From contig CAZEZZ010000001.1 in the NCBI GenBank assembly GCA_964515885.1, forward strand, positions 1-39,861: DNA of 39,861 nucleotides, written 5' to 3'. Below are positions 21,509 through 34,497 of the stretch, piece by piece; the first letter of the stretch is position 1, and every line of letters starts with the position of its first letter. The notes beneath the pieces are model-generated. The model was not told the DNA's origin. It did not search any database and saw nothing but the letters and a program-made list of their open reading frames with translations. Position numbers and translations under genes: made by a program. This DNA comes from an uncultured Candidatus Saccharibacteria bacterium (GTDB taxonomy: Bacteria > Patescibacteriota > Minisyncoccia > Minisyncoccales > RBG-13-42-11).

Positions 21509-23116
21509 TTATAATCTCCCCAAAAGTTTGTAATAGTCGGTTGAACGTCTAGTACCACCTGATATTAAAACTCTTGTAGCGTCTCGTTGTACCTCGTCAC
21601 ACCAGACCTGGCTTACTGCACCTGCAACCGATGGTTTCATAAATGCGTCTATTGAGCAGTCAACACTCTGTAGAACTGTTGGTAGAGCGATACTTGTAGC
21701 TCCTATTCTCCGCAATTCTAAATCAGTTAATACAGCCTCGTAAACAAAACATTCGTCAGCTTCTGTAGCTGCCAATTCTAATGTTCCATCAGCTATACAC
21801 CCTACCCATATACTCTTATTGGCTTGTAGGTCTAAATTGGTCGTAGCTATGAATTGATTTTCGCATTTAAAATTTACATAACAATATGCCATTGAGGTTG
21901 CCTGATTATATACCAACGCTAAATGGTTCCATGCAGCTCCAGCGACATAACTAGAACTTAAACCAGTGATATTGGCTACATCAAAAACGGCATAACCATT
22001 AGCATCTAAATATATCTGAACCTTCTGTGCTGCTGCGTTTGTACCAACAGCTATATAACCTGCGGATACCGCACTATTAAACCACCCACCGATACTTACG
22101 TTTAAATCACCGTTACCTGTCCACCCTGCCGTTGCGTCAGCTTGTAGATGCTCACCTGCTCCTACTGGCACATAGGCTGTTGTAGCAACACCCATTATCC
22201 CCGTAGCTGCTGCGTAAACATCGCCATCACTTAAGTCATTTGTGTTGGCACTTAAATCCACGTTGTCAGCAAGATTATAAACTGCGATTATCCTGGCAGC
22301 GGTATCAAAGTCAGTTAATATTAAATCGTGTGAGGCGTATTGCTGTAAAGCATCGCCCACTGCGCCAACTACCGTATAGTCCTGTATCTCGGCACTACCA
22401 ACTATGTCTAGCGTATTGCCAGCCTTGTCTATTGTATAACTATCAGTACCAGCATTTAAAATTACATCACCAGTATCTGAGTCAAGAGTTAAATCATCTC
22501 CTGCTCCAGTGACTGTGATTTCTAAATTACCAGTAGTTTGTTCAATAACCCCGTTCTCAATTTCAATCAGGGCATCAAGTATTACTCGCCCCGTCCCGTT
22601 AGGGGTAATATATATATCACCATCATTTCCTGTGGTGCTTATTGTTAAATCTGGGTCAGCTACATCGTTATGTTTAATCTCGTGTGCCCAAACATCCTTC
22701 CACTCTATAGCATCACTGCCAAGGTCGTCGGTATTGTCTGTATCACTTATTAACGATGTGTTTATTGCTACAGTTAAAAGATTACTAAGTGCTGTATTGG
22801 CGTTTGTGACAGTTTCGAAATCACCCCAGTTACCACCACTTTCCTTGTATTGTAGCTGGCCGTTAGACGACCTGAATCCTGCGCTTGCGTCTCCGTCTGT
22901 ACCGTCACCATCACTACCATATAAGATAGTCTGGTTAACAGCAGCATTGGATGTACCTCTATCAACTCGTGCAATACGACCTGTCTCTATAAACATTGAT
23001 ACATTTACATAAGATGCAATAGCATTTAAAAACTGCGTACTATATACGCCATAATCCTCGTCTTGGTCCTCTGGGACTGTATAAGCTACACCTCGGACAG
23101 TTACAGCTAATGACAT
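21509..23116 (-). CDS. fibre/appendage protein (possible C-terminal LamG/concanavalin-like domain)
   Basis: 535 aa. It has D/T/G-rich fibre-like repeats, and the C-terminal ...AWNHLALVYNQATSMAYCYVN... resembles LamG-type jelly rolls. It lies directly downstream of the capsid gene terminator. Confidence 0.45.
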   Translation of the reverse strand: MSLAVTVRGVAYTVPEDQDEDYGVYSTQFLNAIASYVNVSMFIETGRIARVDRGTSNAAVNQTILYGSDGDGTDGDASAGFRSSNGQLQYKESGGNWGDFETVTNANTALSNLLTVAINTSLISDTDNTDDLGSDAIEWKDVWAHEIKHNDVADPDLTISTTGNDGDIYITPNGTGRVILDALIEIENGVIEQTTGNLEITVTGAGDDLTLDSDTGDVILNAGTDSYTIDKAGNTLDIVGSAEIQDYTVVGAVGDALQQYASHDLILTDFDTAARIIAVYNLADNVDLSANTNDLSDGDVYAAATGIMGVATTAYVPVGAGEHLQADATAGWTGNGDLNVSIGGWFNSAVSAGYIAVGTNAAAQKVQIYLDANGYAVFDVANITGLSSSYVAGAAWNHLALVYNQATSMAYCYVNFKCENQFIATTNLDLQANKSIWVGCIADGTLELAATEADECFVYEAVLTDLELRRIGATSIALPTVLQSVDCSIDAFMKPSVAGAVSQVWCDEVQRDATRVLISGGTRRSTDYYKLLGRL

Positions 23117-23127
23117 TATTATCCTCC

Positions 23128-23155
23128 AAAAAGGGCGGGAGCTTGCACCCCCGCC
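23128..23155 (-). terminator. intrinsic terminator after the major capsid gene
   Basis: On the minus strand GGCGGG-(10 nt)-CCCGCC is followed by CTTTTT, then GGAGGA and the next ATG. This is the usual layout for boosting capsid mRNA relative to downstream genes. Confidence 0.65.
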
Positions 23156-23163
23156 ACATTTAT

Positions 23164-24396
23164 TTAGCTATTTACTATACCTGTCATCAATACAAGCTGA
23201 CTCATATAGTCAGTTGCAATCGCAGCGTTCCAGTAAATTCTACTTTCGTAACCTTCGTTGTTCTCCATCTGTCTTAGATATTCTCCGCCTTTCTTTAGGC
23301 CAAACTTAGGAACAGTTACTGCACCTAGTTTCTCAAATGATTCGGAAACTCTAGGCATAATAAAACCCTGTCCTTCCTTCATCATTTTATGAGCAATTAT
23401 CCTAGCTGTACCAGCATTGGTGAAAAACTTTAGAACTTCATGTCCATTCTCGAAGCTATTCTCTTTATAAGAATAATCAGTAGTTCTGATTGCTGCTGCG
23501 TCCTGGTTTAAGTTGTTCCAAGCTCTAGGGTTTATAATTACGTCAAATTCGCTAGTATCATCACCTAGTCCACGGTTATAACCCTGTGTTACGGCTGCGA
23601 AAAGTTTATTAAAACTTAATGCTCCAGCGACATCATAAGCTGCACCTGGTCTCCACAAGTTATAAGTTGTAGAGTTTATACCAAATATTGTACCAGTTGT
23701 GTTTCTGAACATAACGTCCATACCTATCATCTGATTAGCGCTTCCTGAGTTATAGATTATGTCTCCAGCAACACAACCAATAGTCGTAAGGTCGATGTCA
23801 TAAGTAACAGTCCTTGCTTCTATTGCGTAATCTGTAACTATAGCTGTTCCTCTTAGAACTCCTGCTGCACTATAGAAATAATCCTTTCTGCCTTCAGCTC
23901 CCCACCATAGACCTGGAGCGTAAGTTTCAGTTGTTATTGTAGCAGTAGTAGTAGCTATAACACCTGTTATACCTATACCACCTGTTGACTGACCCCAAAG
24001 AATGTCCTGCTCCATCTGAGCATAAGCTGTTTTCATAGCGTTCTTTGTCTGTTTCTTAGTAAGAGCTACGAATACTTCCTTACCTTCACTTGACCTTTCG
24101 ATAGCTTCTGTTGAGTAAGCAACCCTTAGTGAAAACTGATACGGTTGGTATGTTGCATACTTTATCGCACCAGCACTAGGACTTTCTAGCGCATAAGCTG
24201 TTGAATTAGGCGGAGCCTTCGTGTAGCCCTGCTCACTTGTTAGTGTCTGTGGGACTTTATAGTCTCCACCTGTTGATGTTCCCTTTCCTGATGGGATGTC
24301 CTTACAAAGGTATCTACCATCGGGTGTCTTGTCTTTCAAATCGCCATAAACATCTTTAAAAATGCCACTGGCGGTTGTTAGAGTATTTTCAGCCAT
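23164..24396 (-). CDS. major capsid protein
   Basis: 410 aa, immediately after the scaffold-like gene and followed by a strong terminator. AAGGAGGA SD. Called from size and position; the fold was not verified. Confidence 0.7.
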   Translation of the reverse strand: MAENTLTTASGIFKDVYGDLKDKTPDGRYLCKDIPSGKGTSTGGDYKVPQTLTSEQGYTKAPPNSTAYALESPSAGAIKYATYQPYQFSLRVAYSTEAIERSSEGKEVFVALTKKQTKNAMKTAYAQMEQDILWGQSTGGIGITGVIATTTATITTETYAPGLWWGAEGRKDYFYSAAGVLRGTAIVTDYAIEARTVTYDIDLTTIGCVAGDIIYNSGSANQMIGMDVMFRNTTGTIFGINSTTYNLWRPGAAYDVAGALSFNKLFAAVTQGYNRGLGDDTSEFDVIINPRAWNNLNQDAAAIRTTDYSYKENSFENGHEVLKFFTNAGTARIIAHKMMKEGQGFIMPRVSESFEKLGAVTVPKFGLKKGGEYLRQMENNEGYESRIYWNAAIATDYMSQLVLMTGIVNS

Positions 24397-24408: not shown

Positions 24409-25383
24409 TTATAAATTTTTAAAAAACTCGTTCAATCCTTCTTCTTTCTTCTTCTTTTCAGGTTGAGATTCTGTGGACGGCTTTAGACTGTTTGAAGTTG
24501 GTATAGCTTCTAGCCCTGCTGTCTCATCTGAACCCACCCTTACTGCCTTTGCAACATTTTCAGGTACGACTTTTCTGATTTGGTCGTCAGACATCTTACC
24601 GAACATTGTGTAAACATATTCCTTTAAATCCTTCTCGGCATGACTTACCGCCTGGTCTGGCGTTACGTCAATGTCGTTATGCTTTGCGACCATCATATAA
24701 TATAAAGCATTTTGCATTATATCTAATCTGGTCTGCTCGCTTCCTTCTGTATAACCCTTTTCTTTTAGAGCTGTGATTATATCTGTTGAATATTTCTCCT
24801 GTAATCGTGATACCTCTGCGTTATATTCAGTAGTAGTCTTTAGCTCTGCTTCTTTCTTTTGATTCGCTTCCCACTTAGCCTTTTCGCTTCTTAGGTTTTC
24901 TAACTCCAGCTGCTCTTCGGTCATTTCACTTCTTGCAACTGCCTTCTCTAGTAATTCCTGAGCATACTCCGCATCTGCACTCTCTGGTATTCCTGCAAGT
25001 CTACGATACTCATTGTACTTCCTAGGGTCAGCAAGAATATCATCTACGAATATCTTGGTCTTCTCCTCTAGGTCTTTTAACTTCTTCTCCTGAGCCTTAA
25101 CACCATCTAGCTTCATGTCGGCTGCGGTGTCTTTAGAATACGTCCTTACAATCTCTTCTAAATTTCTAGTTGTGGGTACACCATTTATCTTCATTGATAA
25201 CGATGGCTTTCCGTCTTCCATTATAACTTCTGAACCTTCAGGTAGTCCACCTACCAGTGACGTAAAACTTGCAATTAAACTCTCGTCACTCTCTGTCGCT
25301 CCATCTACTACTACTTCTTCCGTCTCTACTGGTTCTGTTACTACTTCTTCTGTTCCCTCAATTACTGTTGTTTCTTCACTCAT
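24409..25383 (-). CDS. scaffolding protein
   Basis: 324 aa, very acidic N-terminus (EETTVIEGTEEVVTEPVETEE), long charged helical body. Lies between portal and capsid, with ATGA overlap to the portal stop. Confidence 0.65.
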   Translation of the reverse strand: MSEETTVIEGTEEVVTEPVETEEVVVDGATESDESLIASFTSLVGGLPEGSEVIMEDGKPSLSMKINGVPTTRNLEEIVRTYSKDTAADMKLDGVKAQEKKLKDLEEKTKIFVDDILADPRKYNEYRRLAGIPESADAEYAQELLEKAVARSEMTEEQLELENLRSEKAKWEANQKKEAELKTTTEYNAEVSRLQEKYSTDIITALKEKGYTEGSEQTRLDIMQNALYYMMVAKHNDIDVTPDQAVSHAEKDLKEYVYTMFGKMSDDQIRKVVPENVAKAVRVGSDETAGLEAIPTSNSLKPSTESQPEKKKKEEGLNEFFKNL

Positions 25384-27257
25384 TTTTTAACTCCTTGTGG
25401 CTCTGGTTGGCCTTGGTTTTGTCCTGGTGGCATTTGCTGTGTCGGTAGCTGTCCACCATAGATTAAGTTCGCTACTTCATCCCCCTTTCTCATTATGTCC
25501 ATCGCATCACTAATGAACTTTGTAATGTTTTTGACCTTGTCTATGTTCTTCTCGTCCATTGAGAATTTAATATTTAATAACAAACTCTGTACTTCTTTAA
25601 TTGTCTCAACATGATTCGTACCTGCAATAGGTGTTACAGCCTCGCCGTTCATCAATGACTGTTTAATCTGAGCTATGTAATCGTTCATAGCCATTGTACT
25701 CTTCACTGCACTTTCAAGATTACCAGTATTGGCAACCTCCATGAAATCCCCGTAAGTAAATTCTTTAGGGTTTAATTTCATATATTCACTCGCTGTTTCA
25801 ATTCTACCAGCAGGTGTGTTTAGTATAGGATTTACTTGATTAACCATGACCCTAGATACACCTGTTAAATCCTGATTTGTAAACTCCATTACGTCAGTGA
25901 CACTGTTAGGTCCAAGGATGTCTATCAGCCTCTTAGTATCTGCAAACTTACGCAACGTATCCAACATGAACATTGTTATATCTTCAAACGTATCGTTACG
26001 AGCAGCTTGTAGTCCAAAAGAAAACTGCTGTCCCATAGCAACAACTGTCTGCAAAGCTACGCCACTTTTTAAGTTAGGTGCGGCACTTGCGTCACCACGG
26101 ATAACTGCGTTCTGAGCAGATAGTGTTTCCATCTGGTGTGTCATAAATGATATTGCGTTAGTCAGCGACGATAAGTCACCCATTAAATCTACAACCTCTG
26201 GTTTTGTCGTACTCGTCCATAAGTTTCGACCACTTTGTAATGTTTCGATTTCAACTTGGTCGCCACTTGGACACCAGACATCGTTCAGACCGTTTTGCAT
26301 ATTAGTATATAGTGAACTCATCGCATCGTTTACAACCATCTGTGGAGCACGAAGTAAATTAACATCGGTATATCCCATGCCTGTCTCTAAATATTTACCA
26401 GGCATTAACGGAAATACTGGTAGGCTCTCACCATGAATATTGACCGAATCATAAAGATGAACTGCACTACCATTACCACCACAGAATAAAACGTACTTCC
26501 CGCCTTTAACAGCAGGAGTATCTCTATGGTATGCTGAATACACCCAAATATCATCAGTATCTGTATCGAAATCAGATGTATAGTATGGGTCGTTTGAGAA
26601 CGAATCTAATGCTAAGATTTTGTCTTTCTTCTCACCACTGAACGAACTCGCAACATCGTATTTGTTCTTTCTTCTACGGAATATATACCAGTCCTGTTTT
26701 CCCTTTCTGGTATAGTCATAGAATACATCCCAGGTTGATAGAGCCTCATCATCGAAGTCGCCTTCTTTTTTGTACCGACCATCTTCGTCAACTACTTCCT
26801 TACCCATCTCTGGGTTCCATTCCTTGACGTAAAAACCAGCCCCGTAGATTACACCGTACTCTGTGACTTGATTTAAAATCCTGCCGTATCTCTTGACCTT
26901 TTCGTAGTAATCTAAAATCTGTCTGAATATCTGTGTTGACCTTCTGGACTCTACTGAATCGTTAGTTGCACTTACCGTGTATGATACAGGGATGCTAACT
27001 ATTGGGTTCAACATGTGTCTTGCTATGTTTCGAAAATGTCCTAATGCACAAGCTAGGATTTCGCCCTGTTCACCTGTGTTTAGAATATCTAAGTCCTCAG
27101 AGTCCTCAGAAAAAAACCTGTTCTCATAGAAGTCTTTGTTCTTTTGCCAGCCATTAGCAATACCACTACTTGTAGTGTATTCCTGAAACTTGGTGACTTT
27201 CTCCATGAGTTTCTGAGTTAATTGCTGTTTGTCTTTCTCATTGAAAAGATAACCCAT
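25380..27257 (-). CDS. portal protein
   Basis: About 625 aa, first gene of the head block upstream of scaffold and capsid. ATG 27257 follows AAGGGGTGATT; the track start at 27263 is a GTG two codons upstream. Confidence 0.7.
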   Translation of the reverse strand: MGYLFNEKDKQQLTQKLMEKVTKFQEYTTSSGIANGWQKNKDFYENRFFSEDSEDLDILNTGEQGEILACALGHFRNIARHMLNPIVSIPVSYTVSATNDSVESRRSTQIFRQILDYYEKVKRYGRILNQVTEYGVIYGAGFYVKEWNPEMGKEVVDEDGRYKKEGDFDDEALSTWDVFYDYTRKGKQDWYIFRRRKNKYDVASSFSGEKKDKILALDSFSNDPYYTSDFDTDTDDIWVYSAYHRDTPAVKGGKYVLFCGGNGSAVHLYDSVNIHGESLPVFPLMPGKYLETGMGYTDVNLLRAPQMVVNDAMSSLYTNMQNGLNDVWCPSGDQVEIETLQSGRNLWTSTTKPEVVDLMGDLSSLTNAISFMTHQMETLSAQNAVIRGDASAAPNLKSGVALQTVVAMGQQFSFGLQAARNDTFEDITMFMLDTLRKFADTKRLIDILGPNSVTDVMEFTNQDLTGVSRVMVNQVNPILNTPAGRIETASEYMKLNPKEFTYGDFMEVANTGNLESAVKSTMAMNDYIAQIKQSLMNGEAVTPIAGTNHVETIKEVQSLLLNIKFSMDEKNIDKVKNITKFISDAMDIMRKGDEVANLIYGGQLPTQQMPPGQNQGQPEPQGVKK

Positions 27258-27427
27258 AATCACCCCTTATGGCATTGTCTTGATTTAACTTTACAGTAGC
27301 AAGGACTATTTTAATATTTTAGATTATTTGAGATTTTAGACAGACGGGTATTCTTTTAGAAGGTTGCTCCTAATCACTCCCGAAGTTAATACTTAGTTCT
27401 TACTTAGTGTTTCTCTTAACTACCTAT

Positions 27428-27592
27428 CTAGCCTTCGTAACGACAACAAACAAATAAACAGTCGTAGTAGCCTTTTACACCTTTCATACTAGGTTCTGTA
27501 GTAAAGTTAGTTAAGGAATGTGTTAGCCTACCCGTAATCATTTGTTTAGCTAACCGTGGTCGGATTTGTGAGCTGTTACCCTTTTGTTTCAC
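27428..27592 (-). CDS. doubtful 54-codon basic/Cys-rich ORF inside the non-coding island
   Basis: GTG 27592 lies 5 nt after AAAGGAG, whereas the track ATG at 27619 has no SD. ...GVKGYYDCLFVCCRYEG. It is the only ORF in 730 bp. Confidence 0.3.
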   Translation of the reverse strand: MKQKGNSSQIRPRLAKQMITGRLTHSLTNFTTEPSMKGVKGYYDCLFVCCRYEG

Positions 27593-27786
27593 CTTAACTC
27601 CTTTTACACATTTTAACATCCCGCTTATTGGCTCAACACCTTTTACGGTCTGTACTCTCGCCGAGGATATGATTGCCCTCGCTGTCGCCTTTGATTTTTA
27701 AGGAAAAAGGTCGTTATAAAAAACCTACACTTGTCTACTGCTTTTACTTCGCAAGTATATCCACAAGATAGTGGAAATGTTCTGAT

Positions 27787-27815
27787 ACTATCTTATAATA
27801 TAATTAAATTGTCAA
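27787..27815 (-). promoter_or_regulatory. promoter candidate P2 (TTGACA, weak -10)
   Basis: Perfect TTGACA (27815-27810) directly after the terminator U-tract. The best -10 at 17-nt spacing is GATAGT (4/6). Confidence 0.3.
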
Positions 27816-27817
27816 GA

Positions 27818-27849
27818 TAAAAAAATAGGGGGCTATAGAAATAACCCCC
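27818..27849 (-). terminator. intrinsic terminator
   Basis: On the minus strand GGGGG-TTATTTCTATAG-CCCCC is followed by TATTTTTTTA. Confidence 0.6.
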
Positions 27850-27898
27850 AAGTAGTAAAGTGTAGTCTCTTCTAACGAATAGACTTTGCGAAGTAATA
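27820..27898 (-). ncRNA. candidate small RNA of about 80 nt (promoter P1 to terminator)
   Basis: Defined only by the consensus promoter at 27905-27932 and the terminator at 27818-27849. It contains an extra 5-bp hairpin (AGTCT...AGACT) and no ORF. Confidence 0.3.
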
Positions 27899-27904
27899 CT
27901 ATGT

Positions 27905-27932
27905 ATTATACTCTAGTATGTTCTATTGTCAA
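27905..27932 (-). promoter_or_regulatory. near-consensus sigma70-type promoter P1 (TTGACA-16-TATAAT)
   Basis: On the minus strand: aataactaTTGACAatagaacatactagagTATAATacat. Both hexamers are perfect. Confidence 0.55.
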
Positions 27933-27995
27933 TAGTTATTTTCATTGATGTGTAATAGGTGTGTTTAGTGTGTATTTTGATGGGTTAATCATGGG

Positions 27996-29900
27996 TTATA
28001 ATATATCCCTCAAGCCCTTCTTACCATTTACTGATTTAACAATCTCGTGAGTACTTGGTAGTATCCTGCGACCCTCTTCGTCCATCTCTCCAATCTTGTA
28101 TGGGTTCTTACGCCAGTTTACGTTATCAAAGAAATAACACATCGCCATTAACGCATCTAAGTGTCCCATTGTCTCAGTCCTTTCGAAATCAGTCCTGTTT
28201 ACATTCCAAATACCAAACCGTAACTGCTGGACAAGGTTAGGGCACATCTCTTCGTTTATCAGTATCTTACTCAACCCCACCCTCAACTGATTTATCACCG
28301 AGTCTCTATACCCCTTGTTACTCTCCTTCTTTCTCTTACTGACTGGCATTACAGTGTATCCGTAACTCCTGCCCATATCGAATAACTGCTGCATCTCGTT
28401 ATCACCAATTCTCTTCGGCTTGTCGTAACCCAACTCCCTCTCAATCCTCTTGCATTCCTTTACAATATCTTCCGTACTCTTATAGTGCTCGAAGTACTCC
28501 CGCTCAATTACTAAATTACCCTTTGTGAAATCTAGGTACCCAAATAATACCGCAGTATTGTCCACTAACCCTAAATCAAAACAAACGTAACTATCAAAAC
28601 TTGGTGGTCTCTCAATCGTACCAACACGGAGAGTACACGCCTCGGGAATTACTAACCTGTCCTTTGCACCATCATCCCTTAACTCATACTCAATCCGATA
28701 AGCATCACTCATCACACCACCACACCTCTCCAATATCCGCTCGTGTTGCTCATCACTAACTATCCCCTCCTCCAAACTCATGTGTATGTCCTGGTAGAAA
28801 TAATAATTCCCAGCACTAGCACTCGCAATCTGAGTTATGAAGTCATGAGTTAAGTCTGGAGGTATCGTACTCGTGATTATCATCTGGCCATTAGTCGTGT
28901 CCAACTGAGGGCCCAAAACATGAGTTAACGTATATCTCGGTCTGTACTTCCAAAACCCATACTCATCACAGTATATTATGTCCGCTTCATTACCCCTCGC
29001 TTTAGCACTCTCATCCTTGTCCTTTACACCAAATAAATATATCCTGCTGCCACTCTCAAATAACCAGCAGTCATCCCTACTCAAATACCTTGGAGCTAAC
29101 TCCATACAGTCACCGTATATGTGCTCCAATAAAGTTATGAATATCTCACGAAATGACTTCTGAGTGATACCACCTGCCCTTACAATAATCTTCTCCCTTA
29201 TACACCTCTCAAAGATATATACAAACGTAGTCGTGCTCTTACCCCATCTCCTGTGAGTGTTGCTTAAACACCTCTTGCCATCCCTTAACATCCTATACAA
29301 CCTCAACTGGTCAGGTCTCAAATACCAGTCAGCAATTATCCCGTTCTTGAAGTACTTAACCAACCTACTCTTTCTCTCCTCTTTACCCACAATAGATAAC
29401 TTGTCCAAAATATCAGCCCTCTTGCCAGATACGGAAATTTTTTCCGAAACATCAACCTTGCCTTTAGAACCTGAAAATTTTTCTATGATGGATACTCTCT
29501 TACTATCACTATCTGGATGCGGGGTACCCCCCTTAATGTCTATTGGTACACCTGCTTTAATATCAGTATAGGCAATCTCACACGTAGCATTGGGTGTTTC
29601 ATAGGGCGTAGGATTAGCATTAACTTGTTTATTATCAGGTACTTGTATTTTAGCCTTATCTTGACGGATAACGGTCTTATGCACCTTTGCGGGCTTATTT
29701 GCCTTGAGTAACTCTCTCTCTGCCTTAGCGTTTAACCGTGCTTCCTTCCTGTTCAGTATGTTGATTCTCTTCCTGTCCTTAGCTCTACACGCAGGACTAC
29801 AGTATATTGGCACCTTTGTACCTCTTTTGTATGCTATGTCCTTATTACACTTTAGACAATTAGTATGAAGCCATTTGTTATTGTACTTAGTAGTGTTCAT
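27996..29900 (-). CDS. terL: terminase large subunit with an N-terminal extension of about 190 aa containing a zinc ribbon
   Basis: Walker A-like HRRWGKSTT and Walker B-like IIYCDEYGFW, in a 634-aa protein. The N-terminus CLKCNK...CSPAC plus a basic K/R-rich region is extra. No SD before the ATG. Confidence 0.8.
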   Translation of the reverse strand: MNTTKYNNKWLHTNCLKCNKDIAYKRGTKVPIYCSPACRAKDRKRINILNRKEARLNAKAERELLKANKPAKVHKTVIRQDKAKIQVPDNKQVNANPTPYETPNATCEIAYTDIKAGVPIDIKGGTPHPDSDSKRVSIIEKFSGSKGKVDVSEKISVSGKRADILDKLSIVGKEERKSRLVKYFKNGIIADWYLRPDQLRLYRMLRDGKRCLSNTHRRWGKSTTTFVYIFERCIREKIIVRAGGITQKSFREIFITLLEHIYGDCMELAPRYLSRDDCWLFESGSRIYLFGVKDKDESAKARGNEADIIYCDEYGFWKYRPRYTLTHVLGPQLDTTNGQMIITSTIPPDLTHDFITQIASASAGNYYFYQDIHMSLEEGIVSDEQHERILERCGGVMSDAYRIEYELRDDGAKDRLVIPEACTLRVGTIERPPSFDSYVCFDLGLVDNTAVLFGYLDFTKGNLVIEREYFEHYKSTEDIVKECKRIERELGYDKPKRIGDNEMQQLFDMGRSYGYTVMPVSKRKKESNKGYRDSVINQLRVGLSKILINEEMCPNLVQQLRFGIWNVNRTDFERTETMGHLDALMAMCYFFDNVNWRKNPYKIGEMDEEGRRILPSTHEIVKSVNGKKGLRDIL

Positions 29901-30019: not shown

Positions 30020-30472
30020 TTAGTTTAGTTTACCTTTGTTATTGGGGTTTGGTTGCTTTCCGAACTTTTCTATTCTCAACTGCTCAATCTCGTTGCGGAT
30101 TTTATCAACAGAAGCATCATCTAGCTTTATCTCGGCTTCAACATTGACATTCTCACTTTGTATGTACTGTTTCTCTATCATGCCATAATTTGCTTTTAAT
30201 AGAAACAATGCCATGGCGTTATTTAGTTTATTTGTCAATCCGCCAGTTATCAAGGCTTCCTGACAGTGCGTTCTTAATCTTGCGATTGGTTCGGCATATT
30301 CTGGATAGTTCCGCTCGTACGATTTAATCACGTCTTTATAGCATTTTGAATAGATTGCAAAGCCCGACGCTGTAGGGATTTTATTCTTTTTGTCACAGTG
30401 ACGTAAATATGCGGAAATCTTTTTATTCATGTCATTGGGACTTGCGAATATCTTGTCATATGCCATTACCAT
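30020..30472 (-). CDS. terS: terminase small subunit
   Basis: 150 aa. The pattern ...IPTASGFAIY...THCQEAL...NAMALFLLKANYGM resembles small-terminase families of low-GC phages, and the gene is directly upstream of terL. No SD; ATG 30466 is an alternative start. Confidence 0.6.
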   Translation of the reverse strand: MVMAYDKIFASPNDMNKKISAYLRHCDKKNKIPTASGFAIYSKCYKDVIKSYERNYPEYAEPIARLRTHCQEALITGGLTNKLNNAMALFLLKANYGMIEKQYIQSENVNVEAEIKLDDASVDKIRNEIEQLRIEKFGKQPNPNNKGKLN

Positions 30473-30547: not shown

Positions 30548-30575
30548 TTGCATTTCTTTTAAAACCGTGTATAAT
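30548..30575 (+). promoter_or_regulatory. early promoter (TTGCAT-16-TATAAT)
   Basis: 5/6 -35 and perfect -10, preceded by a long A/T-rich tract (UP-element-like), 40 nt upstream of the first plus-arm gene. Confidence 0.55.
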
Positions 30576-30615
30576 AGGGCTTGTAAGTTAAAAAAAGGCA
30601 CGGAGGAACAAAATC

Positions 30616-30810
30616 ATGGGAAAAAGAAGTTTTAAATGTTTGTGTGAAGCATTAGAGGACAGGGGTTACTATGCTTATAGGTTAGACAATGACTTGTTTA
30701 AGCTAAATGGTATGAAGTTGACAATCACAGAGTTTGTAGAAAATGCAAGAGACATTATTACTAATGTCAATCCTAAGTTATCATTATTATCAGTAATAGG
30801 GGGGTGTTAG
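30616..30810 (+). CDS. hypothetical early protein
   Basis: ACGGAGGA SD. 64 aa; first gene after the early promoter. Confidence 0.6.
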   Translation: MGKRSFKCLCEALEDRGYYAYRLDNDLFKLNGMKLTITEFVENARDIITNVNPKLSLLSVIGGC

Positions 30811-30815
30811 TATGA
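30799..30815 (+). repeat. 17-nt junction element GGGGGGTGTTAGTATGA, copy 1
   Basis: Identical to 31017-31033. It spans a stop codon, the SD and the next ATG. Confidence 0.8.
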
Positions 30816-31033
30816 ATTATTATATTAAGACAACATTAAAAGATAAAAACGGGCTTTACAAAGTAGAAAGTGAAACCATTGATTATGAATATGAGTTGCT
30901 TTGGCGTATGCTTAAAACTTACTATCCCAATGCAAAACATGCAAATATTACAGTGGATGCAATAGCAAATGGCGGAGCGTTGTCAACAGTATATAGAAGT
31001 CTAAAAATAGAAGTATGGGGGGTGTTAGTATGA
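30812..31033 (+). CDS. hypothetical early protein
   Basis: G6 SD; 73 aa. Confidence 0.6.
   Translation: MNYYIKTTLKDKNGLYKVESETIDYEYELLWRMLKTYYPNAKHANITVDAIANGGALSTVYRSLKIEVWGVLV
31017..31033 (+). repeat. 17-nt junction element GGGGGGTGTTAGTATGA, copy 2
   Basis: Identical to 30799-30815. Confidence 0.8.
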
Positions 31034-31272
31034 GATACTTATACGTTGATATAAACATAGCAATAAATAGGGTCAATTATCTTGAAGGTAGTGTTGCAGA
31101 TTGTAGTTATTCTTGTAACTGCTACGATAAACTAACAAAGTATAAACAAGAACTGCAAGATTTATCACTTTTTGGCTATTACACAAAAACATATAACAAG
31201 GAATTTAAACTACTATGCCAAAGGTTTGACCGATTTATGAAACGTCATGGTTATTTTGAATTTATAAACTAA
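31030..31272 (+). CDS. hypothetical early protein
   Basis: ATG 31030 follows the same G6 SD and overlaps the upstream stop (ATGA). The track start at 31015 is less likely. Confidence 0.6.
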   Translation: MRYLYVDINIAINRVNYLEGSVADCSYSCNCYDKLTKYKQELQDLSLFGYYTKTYNKEFKLLCQRFDRFMKRHGYFEFIN

Positions 31273-31280
31273 ATAAAGCT

Positions 31281-31305
31281 ATGCCAAGCTATAACTGGCA
31301 AGGGG
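31281..31305 (+). repeat. 25-nt intergenic element ATGCCAAGCTATAACTGGCAAGGGG, copy 1
   Basis: 22/25 identical to 31709-31733. It ends in the SD of the next gene. Confidence 0.75.
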
Positions 31306-31311
31306 TAAATT

Positions 31312-31704
31312 ATGAATTATCAAAAACAAGGAACTGATTTTCTTAAAAGTACAGGTACAGATTTCAAGGTTGAATACCTTAAAAATGACGTCTATTTTGA
31401 CGGCGACAAGGAAACTAGGGATATTTATAGGATTACACTAAGGCGCAAGGGGGAGCAATTTAGTTTTAAATTTGGGCAGAGCATAGCTAACAGCGATTAC
31501 GGCAATAATACTCCCACAGCATACGACGTTTTAACTTGCTTAACTAAGTACGACCCAAACGATTTTGCTAATTTTTGTAGCGACTATGGCTATGTCATAG
31601 ACAGCAGAAAAGCAGAAAAACTTTATGAGGGTGTATGCAGAGAGTTTAAGGGCGTGGACAGGCTTTTTAGTGATGTTATAGAGCAATTACAAGAAATAAA
31701 CTAA
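31312..31704 (+). CDS. conserved-looking hypothetical phage protein
   Basis: 130 aa. ...RDIYRITLRRKGEQFSFKFGQS...PTAYDVLTCL...FCSDYGY..DSRKAEKLY. I believe similar proteins occur in other phages, but I cannot name a family or function. Confidence 0.6.
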   Translation: MNYQKQGTDFLKSTGTDFKVEYLKNDVYFDGDKETRDIYRITLRRKGEQFSFKFGQSIANSDYGNNTPTAYDVLTCLTKYDPNDFANFCSDYGYVIDSRKAEKLYEGVCREFKGVDRLFSDVIEQLQEIN

Positions 31705-31708
31705 GCCA

Positions 31709-31733
31709 ATGCAAGGCTATAAATGGCAAGGGG
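31709..31733 (+). repeat. 25-nt intergenic element ATGCAAGGCTATAAATGGCAAGGGG, copy 2
   Basis: 22/25 identical to 31281-31305. Confidence 0.75.
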
Positions 31734-31738
31734 GCTTT

Positions 31739-31894
31739 ATGCGAGTAATACTATTACTATTGACATTGACATTGACTCAAGAACTAGCACAGATAAATAA
31801 TAACCTTAGAAAAGGCGAGTATGAAATAGACGCTTTTGAATACTGCACGATAATTGATAAAACAAATAAAGAATGTACGGAGGTTTTAAAATGA
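31739..31894 (+). CDS. 51-aa protein with a hydrophobic N-terminus and a Cys-loop motif
   Basis: ATG 31739 follows AAGGGGG. MRVILLLLTLTLT... then KGEYEIDAFEYCTIIDKTNKECT, which is homologous to a segment of the 19876-20172 product. Confidence 0.5.
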   Translation: MRVILLLLTLTLTQELAQINNNLRKGEYEIDAFEYCTIIDKTNKECTEVLK

Positions 31895-32094
31895 TAAACT
31901 TAGACAAAATTAAAAGGGATATTGACGAAAATGTTTATAATTCCATTGTAACCTGTATTAAGCCCGAAGTTCTTAAAAGGTGGTATAGGGATTGTACTTT
32001 AGAAATAATAAACTTTACAAGGTGTGGAGACGAAAAACACTATAAACTTAATTGCGAAAAGGCTTTGTTGGAATATATGCTAGAAATAAGATAA
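31891..32094 (+). CDS. hypothetical early protein
   Basis: ATG 31891 follows ACGGAGG and overlaps the upstream stop (ATGA). 67 aa. Confidence 0.55.
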   Translation: MINLDKIKRDIDENVYNSIVTCIKPEVLKRWYRDCTLEIINFTRCGDEKHYKLNCEKALLEYMLEIR

Positions 32095-32111
32095 AAAAAA
32101 GGGGGGGTAAA

Positions 32112-32381
32112 ATGAAAAGATATATAATTGCAGAGTGCGACATTGACAGAATAAAGGCTGGTACAATGAATATTGATAGTATCAAGGGCGACAGTGATTA
32201 CCTATGCTTAGACGGTACTACAATGGGTGATGTTATAGACAGGCTAGAACTTGACTTGCTTGATGATAATACTCAAAAATTGTTAGACTTTGTTTATAAC
32301 AGATATATGGGTAGCTTTGACGTAACAGATATTTGGCAATTTATAGAGGACACGGCAATACTATTTAATGAGGGGAGGTGA
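32112..32381 (+). CDS. hypothetical acidic early protein
   Basis: ATG 32112 lies 4 nt after the G7 run of an A8G7 tract. The track start at 32052 overlaps the upstream gene. Confidence 0.6.
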   Translation: MKRYIIAECDIDRIKAGTMNIDSIKGDSDYLCLDGTTMGDVIDRLELDLLDDNTQKLLDFVYNRYMGSFDVTDIWQFIEDTAILFNEGR

Positions 32382-32385
32382 TTAA

Positions 32386-32589
32386 ATGAAAGTAAATAAT
32401 AATTACGAACTAACAGGGTATGCCAAAAGACTTTTTGAAGAGCAACCAATAAGAATTGTAGCAATAGAAAAACAAGACGAAAAATGGTCGAAACTAAGAT
32501 ACAAAACACTACCAAGAGGGCGCAAGGTTTATTCAATGTTTATTTACAATAACGATGTAATAATAAAGGGGTGCAAAAATGGATTGTAA
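32386..32589 (+). CDS. hypothetical early protein
   Basis: GGGGAGGTG SD; 67 aa. Confidence 0.6.
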   Translation: MKVNNNYELTGYAKRLFEEQPIRIVAIEKQDEKWSKLRYKTLPRGRKVYSMFIYNNDVIIKGCKNGL

Positions 32590-32800
32590 AAGCTGTAAAA
32601 AAAGACCCCACGGCTACTCAGTCTGTAGACAGTTATCAGAAAAGGGAACCTGTGAGTTTTACGAACCTAAGAACCCTGATGTTTGCCCTGTTTGTGGGAG
32701 CAAAAACTTCACAGAAAGCCAGTTAAAAACCAGAAAAGGGAAAAATGGAGAGTTTTACAGAAAGTGCTTAAGTTGTGGAAAAATAAGAACTTTATACTAG
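32579..32800 (+). CDS. zinc-ribbon miniprotein
   Basis: CKSCKK...C...CPVCGS...CLSCGK gives three CxxC pairs. AAGGGGTG SD. Confidence 0.6.
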   Translation: MDCKSCKKRPHGYSVCRQLSEKGTCEFYEPKNPDVCPVCGSKNFTESQLKTRKGKNGEFYRKCLSCGKIRTLY

Positions 32801-32811
32801 GAGGGTAAACA

Positions 32812-33036
32812 ATGAAAAACAAAAAGGCTGTGGTTTACGTTAAATTTAGGGGTGGATTAGTTGATAGCCCTTTATCCTGTAAATATCATAAATTAAAATG
32901 GACAGATGATGTTTGTAAGTGTGAGAAGGGACATATACTTTCAAGAGGCTTTAATGTTATAAAAGATTGTACTATCGGTTGCCCTGATTTTATAAATGGT
33001 ACAGTGCTTGAATATAAAACGAAGGTTTTAAAATGA
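32812..33036 (+). CDS. Cys-rich hypothetical protein
   Basis: TAGGAGGG SD. 74 aa with 6 Cys. Confidence 0.6.
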   Translation: MKNKKAVVYVKFRGGLVDSPLSCKYHKLKWTDDVCKCEKGHILSRGFNVIKDCTIGCPDFINGTVLEYKTKVLK

Positions 33037-33063
33037 AGTTAAATAATAAAATATAAATAATAT

Positions 33064-33092
33064 TTGACTTGTTTCAATAAATAGTGTATAAA
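33064..33092 (+). promoter_or_regulatory. promoter candidate (TTGACT-17-TATAAA) for the recombination/replication block
   Basis: 5/6 and 5/6 hexamers with a 17-nt spacer and an A/T-rich upstream tract, in the 75-bp gap before the nuclease gene. Confidence 0.5.
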
Positions 33093-33111
33093 TAATAAAA
33101 AAGAGGTAAAA

Positions 33112-33819
33112 ATGATTACAGAAAAGATTTTAAACTATTTCCAAAATGTAGAGAAAAAACGTGAGTGGAGCAATAACGTCTTTAGAGCTTCAAGTTCTGG
33201 TAAATGCGCCAGGGCTTTAGCTTATCAGCGACTAGAATATGAAGCTGAGCCTTTGAGTGCCAGAGCAAGAATGGTTTTTAGAATGGGTGATTTAGTAGAG
33301 CAAGATATGGTCAACGCTTGTGAAGCCGTAGAATGTCTTACGGACATGCAAAAAGAAGCTAATTTTATACTACCTAATGGTCAAGAAGTTACGGGGCATA
33401 TTGACGGGATTACAGAATTTAACGGTGAAAAAATTGTCGTTGATTTTAAATCTATTTCTATGTTCGGATTCATGCGTGCAGAAAAAGGCGAATTGGATTA
33501 TTCATACAAATGTCAAGCCACCTGTTACATGAAAGCATTAGACTTAAAGAAGTTCCTATTCTTATTCTATAACAAGAACACAAGCCATGTTACAGAGATA
33601 CTATACCAATGGGATGAAAAGATATTAAACGAAGTTGTGGACAGATTTACACGAGTGGGGCAAGCTACTAAAGAAAATCTACCAAACAAGGATTATGGAC
33701 CAAACGCAAAAGGAGATTTGCCGTACCAATGTTCTTACTGTGCTTATGCTAATGTATGTCAAACAGACTATGAGCTTATATTTGAGAAGGGCAAGCCTAA
33801 ACTAAGGAGGAGAAAGTAA
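33112..33819 (+). CDS. Cas4/RecB-like PD-(D/E)XK exonuclease with Fe-S cluster cysteines
   Basis: One N-terminal Cys (SSSGKCARALAY), GHIDGI, VVDFKS (D-x-K) and QATCY (Q-x3-Y), plus a C-terminal C-x2-C-x5-C (CSYCAYANVC). This is the Cas4-type pattern. Confidence 0.8.
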   Translation: MITEKILNYFQNVEKKREWSNNVFRASSSGKCARALAYQRLEYEAEPLSARARMVFRMGDLVEQDMVNACEAVECLTDMQKEANFILPNGQEVTGHIDGITEFNGEKIVVDFKSISMFGFMRAEKGELDYSYKCQATCYMKALDLKKFLFLFYNKNTSHVTEILYQWDEKILNEVVDRFTRVGQATKENLPNKDYGPNAKGDLPYQCSYCAYANVCQTDYELIFEKGKPKLRRRK

Positions 33820-34130
33820 TGCAATTACTAATTGAACAGTTAGACAAGAGAGAATTTGACGGAAAATTTGGGAAGTATTGGAAGGTTGGTATCTATGCCA
33901 ATGGTAAGTGGTACGGTACACCAGAAAAGGACTGGAATAGGGGTTGGGAAGTAGGTAATACCATTGACGTAGAAGTTGAGCAGGTTACGGGCAAAAATGG
34001 TAAAACATACAATAATATTCTACCACCTGGGAAGTCAAGCGGTGGTTCGGGTCAGGATAGTTTATTATTGGAACGTATTGCCACCATATTGGAACGAATT
34101 GAGTTAATCCTTAGTAAGAGAGGTTCTTAA
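33819..34130 (+). CDS. hypothetical protein (possible small OB-fold/ssDNA-binding partner of the nuclease; guess)
   Basis: AGGAGGAG SD. The ATG shares one base with the nuclease stop codon (TAATG). 103 aa, with a G/S-rich linker and a helical tail. Confidence 0.5.
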   Translation: MQLLIEQLDKREFDGKFGKYWKVGIYANGKWYGTPEKDWNRGWEVGNTIDVEVEQVTGKNGKTYNNILPPGKSSGGSGQDSLLLERIATILERIELILSKRGS

Positions 34131-34468: not shown

Positions 34469-34469
34469 A

Positions 34470-34497
34470 TTGACAGATTGTATTTTTGTAGTAAGGT
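34470..34497 (+). promoter_or_regulatory. promoter candidate (TTGACA-16-TAAGGT)
   Basis: Perfect -35, weak -10 (3/6). Upstream of the uORF/hairpin leader of the replication gene. Confidence 0.3.

What the first reader, a model, noticed from the sequence alone, without database searches (positions are those of the whole stretch)
27264..27995. 730-bp non-coding island between terL and portal in an otherwise gap-free genome
Almost every other gene junction in the window is an overlap or a gap of under 100 bp. Here 730 bp hold only one doubtful 54-63-codon ORF. Read on the transcribed (minus) strand, the island contains these elements in order:
- a perfect TTGACA-16-TATAAT promoter;
- an intrinsic terminator about 80 nt later;
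- a second TTGACA immediately after the U-tract;
- a stretch of about 540 nt with many short hairpins (GATAGT/ACTATC, CGAGG/CCTCG, GTTAGC/GCTAAC, ACGAC/GTCGT);
- three copies of GTAAAAGG (plus-strand CCTTTTAC at 27471, 27600, 27639);
- two 8-mer direct repeats: plus-strand TACTTAGT at 27390 and 27401 (11-bp phasing), and ATTTTAGA at 27316 and 27333.
A 10-12-nt inverted repeat (27745-27757 versus 27883-27895) brackets the terminator and the second promoter. Possible roles are a long structured leader or ncRNA gating late-gene expression, the packaging initiation site or physical genome ends, or a regulatory switch between packaging and head genes.
Basis: seen in the sequence. Interest (0 to 1): 0.7.

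Follow-up and report, generated by a model that had tools for sequence, protein, structure and literature searches.

The report
Strain-specific non-coding insert with small-RNA gene
The 730-base gap between the terminase and portal genes is a real, strain-specific piece of extra DNA with its own strong promoter and terminator (probably making an ~80-base RNA). A close sister phage lacks it entirely, so it is an optional add-on, not a core switch for late genes or a packaging site.

Summary
The gap is real: 738 nt from the TerL stop at 27996 to the true portal ATG at 27257. It is the only large non-coding stretch in this ~40 kb phage genome.

**Beyond chance**
- The genome's only perfect TTGACA-N16-TATAAT (27932-27905, minus strand).
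- A strong intrinsic terminator 56 nt after the -10 (27849-27828, plus T7).

**At chance level in shuffles**
- The 8-mer repeats (p about 0.08-0.23) and the 11-nt inverted repeat (p about 0.12).
- The "many hairpins" of the 3' 450 nt (local z about 0 to +1.6).

**Comparison with relatives**
- Six contigs of the same phage, from five samples, carry the island 100% identical.
- A co-occurring sister phage (TerL 84%, portal 92% aa) has 163 unrelated nt in place of 683 nt (27313-27995).
- Both phages keep a near-identical 58-nt portal-proximal block.
- Thirteen of 15 distant relatives have TerL-portal gaps of 48 nt or less.

No homologue of the island was found in any collection searched, in Rfam, or in the protein-family libraries.

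**Best reading:** a moron-like accessory insertion with an autonomous ~80-nt sRNA unit, a restart promoter, and a doubtful 54-codon ORF.

An 18-bp helix pairs the TerL stop region with the portal RBS.

It is a new member of a known kind, of modest interest.

The parts
27313..27995 (-). Island proper. This lineage-specific segment of 683 nt is replaced by about 163 unrelated nt in the sister phage.
   Evidence: BLASTN of L012 against the window shows homology ending at 28002 and resuming at 27312. The junction alignments agree. The segment is 100% identical in L002-L005 and L014. GC is 35.1%, against 41.7% for TerL and 40.2% for portal.
27982..27999 (-). 5' arm of a long-range RNA helix (AUAACCCAUGAUUAACCC). 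It overlaps the TerL stop codon at 27998-27996.
   Evidence: Inverted repeat I1. Read from the sequence, it forms 15 Watson-Crick pairs and 2 G-U pairs out of 18 with 27266-27249. The helix appears in both the MFE and the centroid of the 776-nt fold. It is the best partner of the portal RBS on the minus-strand-transcribed genome, at -23.9 kcal/mol. It is also the strongest upstream partner among 42 gene starts.
27933..27995 (-). C-rich, G-poor spacer after the TerL stop, resembling a Rho-utilisation (rut) site.
   Evidence: Composition is A30 C18 T13 G2 in 63 nt. A role as a Rho site is inference only.
27905..27932 (-). Promoter P1: TTGACA, a 16-nt spacer, then TATAAT.
   Evidence: Found. It is the only 12/12 match in 39.9 kb, against 0.09 expected genome-wide.
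27819..27899 (-). Predicted non-coding RNA of about 80 nt. It has a 15-nt single-stranded 5' end, a small hairpin, a 14-nt A/U-rich linker, and a terminator hairpin followed by U7.
   Evidence: Fold of 27900-27818: -22.6 kcal/mol, z = -3.58, 0 of 200 shuffles as good. No ORF and no Rfam family match. The transcript ends are predicted, not measured.
27818..27849 (-). Intrinsic terminator with a 9-bp stem (5 G-C pairs), a 4-nt loop and the tail TATTTTTTTA.
   Evidence: On the minus strand, only two other intergenic terminators of comparable quality were found (23155-23134 after the capsid gene, and 2328-2297 at the operon end).
27787..27815 (-). Promoter P2: TTGACA, a 17-nt spacer, then GATAGT. 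It starts directly after the U-tract. An 8-bp inverted repeat (27794-27787 / 27772-27765) overlaps its -10 element.
   Evidence: 10 of 12 matches. The hairpin is visible in the folds.
27725..27754 (-). Two segments in the P2 leader complementary to the two single-stranded parts of the predicted sRNA. 27754-27744 pairs with 27896-27886 (11/11). 27739-27725 pairs with 27865-27851 (13/15).
   Evidence: Inverted repeats I7 and I4. The 186-nt fold of 27900-27715 has z = -4.41. It is the top non-self duplex partner of the sRNA 5' 50 nt in the genome, but only by 1.5 kcal/mol. The perfect 11-mer alone is not above chance (p = 0.12).
27428..27619 (-). Doubtful small ORF. It is 63 codons from ATG 27619, or 54 codons from GTG 27592, which is preceded by the SD AAAGGAG.
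   Evidence: SD and start context. Codon-usage score is 0.11-0.13: above the 95th percentile of spurious ORFs (0.086) but at the low end of real small genes, with a weak sliding signal. All three GTAAAAGG copies fall in this frame as Val-Lys-Gly. It has no homologue among 1.84 billion representatives apart from itself. AF2 pLDDT is 58. It was not called as a gene in L002-L005.
27255..27312 (-). Conserved portal-proximal block, not part of the insertion. It contains TTGCTA (27302-27297), a 17-nt spacer, GACAAT (27279-27274), the SD AAGGGGTG (27268-27261) and ATG 27257.
   Evidence: 57 of 58 nt are identical to L012, against about 12% divergence in the adjoining portal gene. A related motif, CTTGCTACTGAAAAG, lies at 3913-3899 (-) before another late gene. 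Relatives L007, L009, L010 and L011 also have a TTGCA-type hexamer within about 70 nt upstream of portal. Promoter function is inferred.

Best explanation
The island is a lineage-specific accessory insertion of the 'moron' type. It sits at the boundary between the terminase genes and the portal/head genes, a junction that is tight (48 nt or less) in most relatives. I propose four functional elements.

1. **An autonomous small-RNA gene.**
   - The host sigma-70-type RNA polymerase starts at the perfect promoter P1, at about 27898, and stops at the intrinsic terminator, at about 27820.
   - This releases an RNA of about 80 nt.
   - The RNA's free 5' end, A/U-rich linker and hairpin-plus-U-tail give it the layout of a base-pairing regulatory sRNA.
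2. **A shared terminator.** The same terminator probably also ends terS-terL transcripts. The G-poor, C-rich stretch after the TerL stop may contribute.
3. **A restart promoter.**
   - P2, immediately after the U-tract, restarts transcription.
   - The P2 transcript runs through a leader of about 190 nt and a possible 54-codon ORF into portal.
   - Portal keeps its own conserved promoter and RBS block.
4. **A long-range helix.**
   - On read-through transcripts, an 18-bp helix pairs the sequence at the TerL stop codon with the portal SD and AUG.
   - This loops the island out.

**Shown:** the signals, their rarity, the presence/absence pattern, and the lack of structure or coding signal in most of the island.

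**Inferred:** that the RNA is made, what it pairs with, and that the terminal helix affects portal translation.
For: - **Rarity of the signals.** P1 is the only 12/12 promoter in 39.9 kb, with 0.09 expected. A strong terminator follows on the same strand 56 nt after the -10. The unit folds with z = -3.6.
- **Presence/absence pattern.** The sister phage L012/L001 is collinear at 82-88% DNA identity, but has 163 unrelated nt in place of 27313-27995, with no promoter or terminator.
   - Both variants occur in the same sample, ERZ27316532.
   - Relatives have gaps of 60-213 nt.
   - Thirteen of 15 distant relatives have gaps of -9 to 48 nt.
- **Real DNA, not an assembly artefact.** The island is identical in six contigs from five samples.
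- **Composition.** GC is 35.1%, against 40-42% in the flanking genes.
- **No known match.** There is no known RNA family and no protein remnant in six frames.
- **Portal's own control region is retained.** The conserved portal-proximal block is intact.
- **Terminal helix.** It is in the MFE and centroid folds. It is the strongest RBS partner among 42 genes.
- **Definition of a moron.** An addition relative to related phages, with its own promoter and terminator and deviating GC (PMC3594210). sRNA genes at moron sites are described in PMC4104026.
Against: - No transcript data exist. The host is unknown, so use of an E. coli-type consensus promoter is assumed. The phage's other likely promoters use TTGC(A/T)N at -35.
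- There is no homologue of the island anywhere, and no sequence variation among copies. No covariation or conservation test is therefore possible.
- A low-GC intergenic spacer is not in itself evidence of foreign origin.
- The phage has no recognisable integrase or repressor, so the classical moron rationale of expression from a prophage may not apply.
- The sRNA-leader complementarity and the repeats are individually at chance level.
- Which of the two phages carries the derived state cannot be proven from two variants.
Confidence: 0.5

Rival explanations
1. The island's payload is a small protein gene. P2 drives a 54-63-aa basic protein (27592/27619-27428), and the P1-terminator RNA is only its regulator or is incidental.
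For: - A canonical SD AAAGGAG lies 5 nt before GTG 27592. It resembles the SD of the real gene at 24409-25383.
- The open frame is 88 codons stop to stop.
- The codon score is above the 95th percentile of spurious ORFs.
- All three GTAAAAGG copies are in this frame.
- RNA structure across it is weaker than in shuffles, as in coding sequence.
- One gene caller predicted the 63-aa product (P0112).
Against: - Its only true match among 1.84 billion representatives is itself; the other hit is a repeat artefact.
- The coding signal is weaker than in the flanking genes.
- It was not called in L002-L005.
- AF2 pLDDT is 58.
- Even if real, it explains only 165-192 of 683 nt.
Confidence: 0.2
2. The island is a long structured leader or ncRNA, or a promoter-terminator switch, that gates expression of portal and the head genes. 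One version is a lambda-PR'/tR'-like module read through by a phage antiterminator.
For: - A strong promoter followed by a terminator about 80 nt later, upstream of structural genes, resembles lambda PR'-tR' (the comparison rests on general knowledge of lambda).
- The whole-island fold has z = -3.06, from only 20 shuffles.
- The 186-nt 5' domain has z = -4.4.
- A -10-like TAGTAT lies in the initially transcribed region.
Against: - The sister phage has the same late genes but lacks the module completely.
- Portal keeps its own conserved promoter/RBS block.
- terS and terL lie upstream of the module.
- No Q-like or other antiterminator was recognised.
- No alternative pairing competes with the terminator stem.
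- The 3' 450 nt are unstructured.
- No Rfam match.
Confidence: 0.08
3. The island holds the packaging initiation (pac) site or the physical genome ends.
For: - It is adjacent to the terminase genes.
- It is AT-rich, with short direct repeats phased at 11 and 17 bp.
Against: - TerS is of the P22/Sf6 GP3_package type, for which pac is expected inside terS (general knowledge of P22-type headful packaging).
- The repeats are at chance level.
- The sister phage has 84-92% identical packaging proteins but lacks the sequence.
- None of seven contigs of the phage ends in the island, and the window has no terminal repeat.
Confidence: 0.03
4. The island is functionless spacer or the decayed remnant of a lost gene. 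The promoter-like and terminator-like sites are then leftovers with no current role.
For: - It is an orphan sequence with no homologue.
- It is absent from the sister phage without obvious consequence.
- Most motifs are at chance level.
- There is one weakly coding-like frame.
Against: - A 12/12 promoter has an expectation of about 0.002 in 732 nt (scaled). A strong same-strand terminator within 60 nt of it is very unlikely to be a leftover.
- No protein-family trace appears in six frames.
- The phage genome is otherwise tightly packed, which argues against tolerated junk.
Confidence: 0.12
5. The island is a DNA inversion switch. The 11-bp inverted repeats (27744-27754 / 27886-27896) flank a 131-bp segment holding the terminator, P2 and an opposite-strand promoter (27772-27799 +). 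Flipping the segment would remove the terminator from the P1 transcript.
For: - The inverted repeat is perfect.
- Promoter-like sites face both ways inside the segment.
- The terminator has a U-tract on one strand only.
Against: - A perfect inverted repeat of 11 nt or more occurs in 12% of shuffles.
- No invertase or recombinase was found in the phage.
- All seven assemblies show one orientation.
Confidence: 0.03

Closest known systems
Phage morons (HK97/HK022 type; reviewed in PMC3594210)
   Same: - It is extra DNA between two genes that are adjacent in related phages.
- It has its own promoter and factor-independent terminator.
- Its GC content differs from the neighbouring genes.
- It sits inside the late/structural gene block.
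   Different: - The unit bounded by promoter and terminator holds no protein gene, only about 80 nt of RNA.
- The only ORF lies after the terminator and is doubtful.
- The phage shows no integrase or repressor, so expression from a prophage is not evident.
- No donor or second copy of the element is known.
Prophage-encoded Hfq-binding sRNAs at moron sites of lambdoid phages (AsxR and AgvB anti-sRNAs; PMC4104026)
   Same: - It is a short non-coding RNA gene (the known ones are 51-60 nt, this one about 80 nt).
- It is carried as accessory cargo in an insertion-tolerant site of the late region.
- It ends in a terminator hairpin with a U-tail.
   Different: - There is no sequence similarity.
- The site is the TerL-portal junction, not downstream of PR'.
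- It is a single RNA, not a convergent pair.
- The host, Hfq dependence and targets are all unknown.
Lambda PR'-tR' (6S RNA) with Q antitermination. This comparison rests on general knowledge of lambda, not on a test here.
   Same: - A strong constitutive-looking promoter is followed by a terminator, giving a short RNA.
- Structural genes lie downstream.
   Different: - No Q-like gene is adjacent or recognisable.
- terS and terL lie upstream of the module.
- The module is absent in the sister phage.
- A second promoter follows the terminator.
Long-range RNA pairing that couples translation of a downstream gene to an upstream one (for example the MS2 coat-replicase 'Min Jou' interaction). This comparison rests on general knowledge of MS2.
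   Same: - The downstream gene's SD and AUG are paired with a distant upstream sequence.
- Ribosomes finishing the upstream gene would have to melt that pairing.
   Different: - Here the arms are 715 nt apart, with a terminator and two promoters between them.
- The effect is untested, and only two sequence variants exist.
- The sister phage appears to use a local hairpin instead.

Membership tests
Phage moron | Present between two genes that are adjacent, or nearly so, in a related phage | tested here: met
   The sister phage L012 has 163 unrelated nt instead. Relatives have gaps of -9 to 213 nt.
Phage moron | Own promoter and own terminator | tested here: met
   By sequence prediction only: P1 matches 12/12 and the intrinsic terminator was found. 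No transcript data exist.
Phage moron | Base composition different from the surrounding genes | tested here: inconclusive
   GC is 35.1% against 40-42%. However, intergenic DNA is generally more AT-rich.
Phage moron | Carries a protein-coding gene between its promoter and terminator | tested here: not met
   There is no ORF in 27899-27819. The only candidate ORF (27592-27428) lies downstream of the terminator and is doubtful.
Phage moron | Expressed from a repressed prophage | not testable with these tools
   No integrase or repressor was recognised. No expression data exist.
Trans-acting base-pairing sRNA (Hfq-type layout) | Discrete short transcript with its own 5' and 3' ends | not testable with these tools
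   The ends are predicted only, from P1 and the terminator.
Trans-acting base-pairing sRNA (Hfq-type layout) | Single-stranded seed, plus a Rho-independent terminator with a U-tail | tested here: met
   In the fold of 27900-27818, nt 1-15 and 38-51 are unpaired and the terminator hairpin is followed by U7. z = -3.58.
Trans-acting base-pairing sRNA (Hfq-type layout) | Identifiable target with complementarity above chance | tested here: inconclusive
   The best phage partner is the adjacent leader at 27754-27725, but the margin is small. The 11-mer is at chance level. The host genome is unknown.
Any Rfam family (riboswitch, leader, sRNA, ribozyme) | Score at or above the family's gathering threshold | tested here: not met
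   The whole window gave 0 hits at gathering score. In the region, the best scores are 13-18 bits against thresholds of 41-101.
Q-type antitermination late promoter module | Antiterminator gene present, and the module located upstream of the whole late operon | tested here: not met
   No antiterminator family hit was found. terS and terL lie upstream. The module is absent in the sister phage.
pac / cos packaging site | Read termini or terminal repeats at the site, and conservation among phages with related terminases | tested here: not met
   The conservation part was tested and not met. No terminal repeat was found and no contig ends in the island. Read termini could not be tested.
Type I toxin-antitoxin (sRNA plus small toxic peptide) | Small hydrophobic or otherwise toxic peptide whose mRNA is bound by a nearby sRNA | tested here: inconclusive
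   The sRNA is complementary to the leader of the ORF transcript. However, the ORF product is basic with no membrane-spanning stretch, it is an orphan, and the genes are in tandem rather than antisense or divergent.

The most novel reading that the evidence does not exclude
The island is a self-contained RNA regulatory cassette in which three things hold together. First, an 80-nt sRNA and its target leader are encoded in tandem. The two single-stranded sRNA segments pair with 27754-27744 and 27739-27725 of the transcript started by the very next promoter. Second, the whole 0.7-kb insert is looped out by an 18-bp helix joining the TerL stop codon to the portal SD and AUG. Third, as a result, portal translation on read-through transcripts stays coupled to completion of TerL translation, or the island is excised by a double-strand-specific RNase. 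This would be an insertion that carries its own device for preserving operon logic.
Probability: 0.08. Interest if true: 0.6.

Novelty: new member of a known kind. Interest (0 to 1): 0.3.

Why it matters
If the predicted RNA is made, this is an sRNA gene carried as accessory cargo by an uncultivated, apparently lytic freshwater phage from a group with almost no annotated proteins. That would extend the moron and sRNA-cargo concept beyond lambdoid prophages.

It also marks the TerL-portal junction as an insertion-tolerant site in this group.

The long-range pairing of the TerL stop region with the portal ribosome-binding site is a testable idea. It suggests how an operon could tolerate a 0.7-kb insertion containing a terminator.

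For annotation purposes, the main value is negative. The island is not a conserved late-gene switch, not a known RNA family, and very probably not a packaging site.

Tried and rejected
- **Known RNA families.** Rfam in permissive mode on the region and at gathering threshold on the whole window gave nothing. A tRNA/tmRNA scan gave nothing.
- **Decayed gene.** Six-frame translations were scanned against Pfam and PHROGs. The only result was one noise hit.
- **Recoded stop codon.** Stops of all three types are spread over every frame.
- **Island copies elsewhere.**
   - blastn against phages and plasmids found nothing.
   - Degenerate-pattern scans with ORF63 and with a chimeric pseudo-protein covering 27904-27428 found nothing in viral, metagenome or genome contigs.
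   - An exhaustive HMMER search with ORF63 found only itself and a repeat artefact.
- **Covariation.** This was impossible. All copies are identical, and a second metagenome scan found only the sister contig.
- **Repeated segments shared with the rest of the genome.** None were significant.
- **MITE-type element.** The 18-nt terminal inverted repeat was considered as element ends. It was rejected because one arm is the conserved portal SD/ATG, which lies outside the indel.
- **Target-site duplication.**
   - AAAATA occurs at both island ends.
   - The left flank was also tested for homology to the sister's anti-RBS segment.
   - The alignment is no better than shuffles (p = 0.49).
- **Replication origin.** The replication-initiator gene lies at 34505-35299, and the island's repeats are at chance level.
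- **Host identification.** Prophage relatives gave only hits of 30% identity or less in MAGs from many phyla, so the host remains unknown.
- **Structure of ORF63.** Prediction without an alignment gave pLDDT 58, which is uninformative.
Full report
**What the window is**

The 39,861-nt window is an essentially complete phage genome.
- A long minus-strand block runs from about 30472 to 2346. It encodes a P22/Sf6-type small terminase (GP3_package, 30020-30472), the large terminase TerL (27996-29900, Terminase_6N), a portal, and a capsid-like protein.
- The portal's relatives carry the P22_portal domain PF16510. Its true start is ATG 27257, giving the 625-aa P0001.
- Plus-strand early genes fill the rest of the genome.
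- Most genes have strong Shine-Dalgarno sequences.

**Checking the observation**

The gap between the TerL stop (27996-27998) and the portal start is real, and it is the only large non-coding region.
- With ORFs of at least 40 aa on the expected strand, the two largest uncovered stretches both lie in the island.
- The next internal gaps are 143 nt and 119 nt.
- A 375-nt apparent gap at 34130-34505 is filled by two ORFs under 60 aa.

All the listed motifs are at the stated coordinates, but they differ greatly in weight.
- *Beyond chance:*
   - TTGACA-N16-TATAAT at 27932-27905 (-) is the only perfect promoter match in the genome, with 0.09 expected.
   - It is followed 56 nt after the -10 by a 9-bp G+C-rich hairpin with a T7 tail.
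- *Not beyond chance,* in 500 dinucleotide shuffles of the island:
   - an 8-mer present three times (p = 0.08);
   - closely spaced 8-mer repeats (p = 0.08);
   - a perfect inverted repeat of at least 11 nt (p = 0.12);
   - the number of repeated 8-mers (p = 0.23).
- *Local folding:*
   - 100-nt windows covering 27920-27761 reach z of -2.8 to -3.6.
   - Windows from 27820 down to 27241 lie between -1.2 and +1.7.
   - The 'many short hairpins' of the 3' part are therefore what any sequence of this composition gives.

**Comparative evidence**

The same phage was assembled independently in at least five samples (L002-L005, L014), and the island is 100% identical in all of them. It is therefore real DNA, but this gives no variation to analyse.

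A sister phage (L012/L001/L013) is collinear at 82-88% DNA identity, with TerL 84% and portal 92% identical at the amino-acid level.
- Homology stops at the TerL stop codon and resumes at 27312.
- In between, the window has 683 nt and the sister has about 163 unrelated nt, with no promoter or terminator.
- Both variants occur in the same sample, ERZ27316532.

More distant relatives have short gaps.
- L011, L007 and L009 have 60, 95 and 177 nt.
- In 13 of 15 distant relatives found in MAG contigs, the gap is -9 to 48 nt.

The ancestral state is thus a tight TerL-portal junction, and the island is a derived, dispensable addition.

The 58 nt next to portal (27312-27255) differ from the sister at one position, against about 12% divergence in the adjoining gene.
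- This block holds TTGCTA-17-GACAAT and the SD.
- A near-copy of its core, CTTGCTACTGAAAAG, precedes another late gene at 3913-3899.
- Relatives also show a TTGCA-type hexamer upstream of portal.
- I infer that this block is portal's own control region and is not part of the insertion.

**What the island is not**
- It matches no Rfam family and no tRNA or tmRNA.
- No protein-family trace appears in six frames, and there is no pattern suggesting stop-codon recoding.
- No homologue was found in phage or plasmid records.
- None was found in viral, metagenome or genome contigs, using a chimeric pseudo-protein that turns 27904-27428 into degenerate DNA patterns.
- For the 63-codon ORF, none was found among 1.84 billion protein representatives. 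The only hits were itself and a repeat-driven artefact.
- No segment of the island is repeated elsewhere in the genome.

**Anatomy on the minus strand**
1. 27999-27982 overlaps the TerL stop codon and is complementary to the portal SD and AUG at 27266-27249 (15 Watson-Crick and 2 G-U pairs out of 18).
2. 27995-27933 is C-rich and almost free of G (2 G in 63 nt).
3. P1 is at 27932-27905.
4. A predicted RNA of about 80 nt spans about 27899-27819. It has a 15-nt free 5' end, a small hairpin, a 14-nt A/U-rich linker, and the terminator with U7 (z = -3.58).
5. P2 (TTGACA-17-GATAGT, 27815-27787) starts directly after the U-tract. An 8-bp inverted repeat overlaps its -10.
6. The P2 leader contains two segments, 27754-27744 and 27739-27725. 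They are complementary to the two free parts of the predicted RNA (11/11 and 13/15). The 186-nt stretch 27900-27715 folds with z = -4.4.
7. An ORF runs from GTG 27592 (54 codons) or ATG 27619 (63 codons), with a good SD.
   - Its codon usage is borderline.
   - All three GTAAAAGG copies are in its frame.
8. 115 nt of unremarkable A/T-rich spacer follow.
9. The conserved portal block comes last.

**The terminal helix**

This feature was not in the original finding.
- It appears in both the MFE and the centroid of the 776-nt fold.
- It is the best partner of the portal RBS anywhere in the minus-strand-transcribed genome, at -23.9 kcal/mol and about 4.8 sd below the mean of all windows.
- It is the strongest upstream partner found for any of 42 gene starts; the next best is -20.5.
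- In the sister phage, the portal SD/AUG is predicted to pair with a local segment about 45 nt upstream instead.

I read this as suggestive evidence that occlusion of the portal RBS is a retained feature. In this phage the occluding arm sits at the far side of the insertion. An attempt to show that the two occluding arms are homologous failed (p = 0.49).

**Most likely mechanism** (confidence about 0.5)

The island is a moron-like accessory insertion.
- Host RNA polymerase starts at P1 and stops at the terminator, giving a short regulatory RNA.
- The terminator also ends terS-terL transcription.
- P2 and the conserved block restart transcription into portal.
- The sister phage does without all of this.

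The signals and the presence/absence pattern are shown. Production of the RNA, its target and the role of the terminal helix are inferred.

The definition of a moron (PMC3594210) fits in three respects. It is an addition relative to related phages, it has its own promoter and terminator, and its GC deviates. It does not fit in that the promoter-terminator unit holds no protein gene. sRNA genes as cargo at moron sites are known from lambdoid prophages (PMC4104026).

**Rivals**
- *A small-protein payload (ORF54), 0.2.* This is compatible with the main reading.
- *A gating leader or Q-type antitermination module, 0.08.*
   - It is absent in the sister phage.
   - Portal keeps its own conserved block.
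   - terS and terL lie upstream of it.
   - No antiterminator was recognised.
- *A pac site or genome ends, 0.03.* The TerS type, the lack of conservation and the absence of contig ends in the island all argue against it. It is untested with reads.
- *Functionless spacer or a decayed gene, 0.12.* This is hard to reconcile with a 12/12 promoter next to a strong terminator in a tightly packed genome.
- *An invertible switch, 0.03.* There is no recombinase, only one orientation is seen in every assembly, and the inverted repeat is at chance level.

**Verdict**

The gap, the promoter, the terminator and the second promoter are real, while the repeats and most hairpins are not above chance.

The feature is a new member of a known kind: an accessory promoter-terminator unit or candidate phage sRNA. 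It is an orphan in sequence and untestable by covariation at present. Interest is 0.3.

Noticed in passing
window 27996-29900 (-), residues 1-181 of TerL: TerL is 634 aa, with an N-terminal extension of about 180 aa shared only with the sister phage (653 aa). All other relatives are 418-512 aa and align from residue about 182. Several of them instead have small separate genes (for example Zn_ribbon_8) upstream of TerL. The annotated ATG has no Shine-Dalgarno sequence. This may be a gene fusion or a mis-set start.
   Followed up: partly
window 27303-27289 (-) and 3913-3899 (-): The motif CTTGCTACTG(T/A)AAAG occurs twice, each time about 32 nt before a start codon in the late block. The second copy precedes an unlisted 53-codon ORF (3865-3704) with a strong SD. 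It is a candidate phage-specific promoter or operator. The likely early promoter at 30548-30575 (+) (TTGCAT-16-TATAAT) and the terS-side site at 30501 (-) also use a TTGCA-type -35.
   Followed up: partly
window 27982-27999 and 27249-27266 (-): An 18-nt complementarity (15 Watson-Crick and 2 G-U pairs) links the sequence at the TerL stop codon to the portal SD and AUG. It is the strongest RBS-upstream pairing among 42 genes. The sister phage L012 is predicted to occlude the same RBS with a local hairpin (L012 about 5578-5650).
   Followed up: partly
window 35301-35948 (+): A 215-aa early protein carries a ROS/MucR transcriptional-regulator domain (E = 1.8e-12). It is the only recognisable transcription regulator in the genome and a possible hint about the host lineage.
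   Followed up: no
window 22640-23180, compared with L003: A contig of the same phage from another sample is identical elsewhere. Here it differs by about 30 substitutions and indels clustered in 540 nt, covering the 5' end of the 535-aa gene downstream of the capsid gene and the terminator after the capsid gene. This is a recombination tract or a hypervariable region.
   Followed up: no
window 34130-34505 (+): The second-largest apparent gap is actually filled by two ORFs under 60 aa. One runs 34132-34305 and has CxxC...CxxC motifs. The other runs 34306-34468. A 14-bp-stem hairpin lies at 34592-34622, inside the replication-initiator gene.
   Followed up: partly
window 2346-25383 (-), structural genes: Ten large structural proteins give no PHROG hit at E <= 0.001. 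The only phage-record relative of the portal is a Silvanigrella aquatica phage at 23% identity. Distant portal relatives sit in MAG bins from many phyla, mostly aquatic. This is a poorly charted phage group.
   Followed up: partly
L012 1-2800, compared with window 30600-33820: The early regions of the two sister phages are rearranged. The Cas4-like/PDDEXK exonuclease gene abuts the divergent promoter region in L012, but lies 2.5 kb away behind about 10 small ORFs in the window.
   Followed up: no
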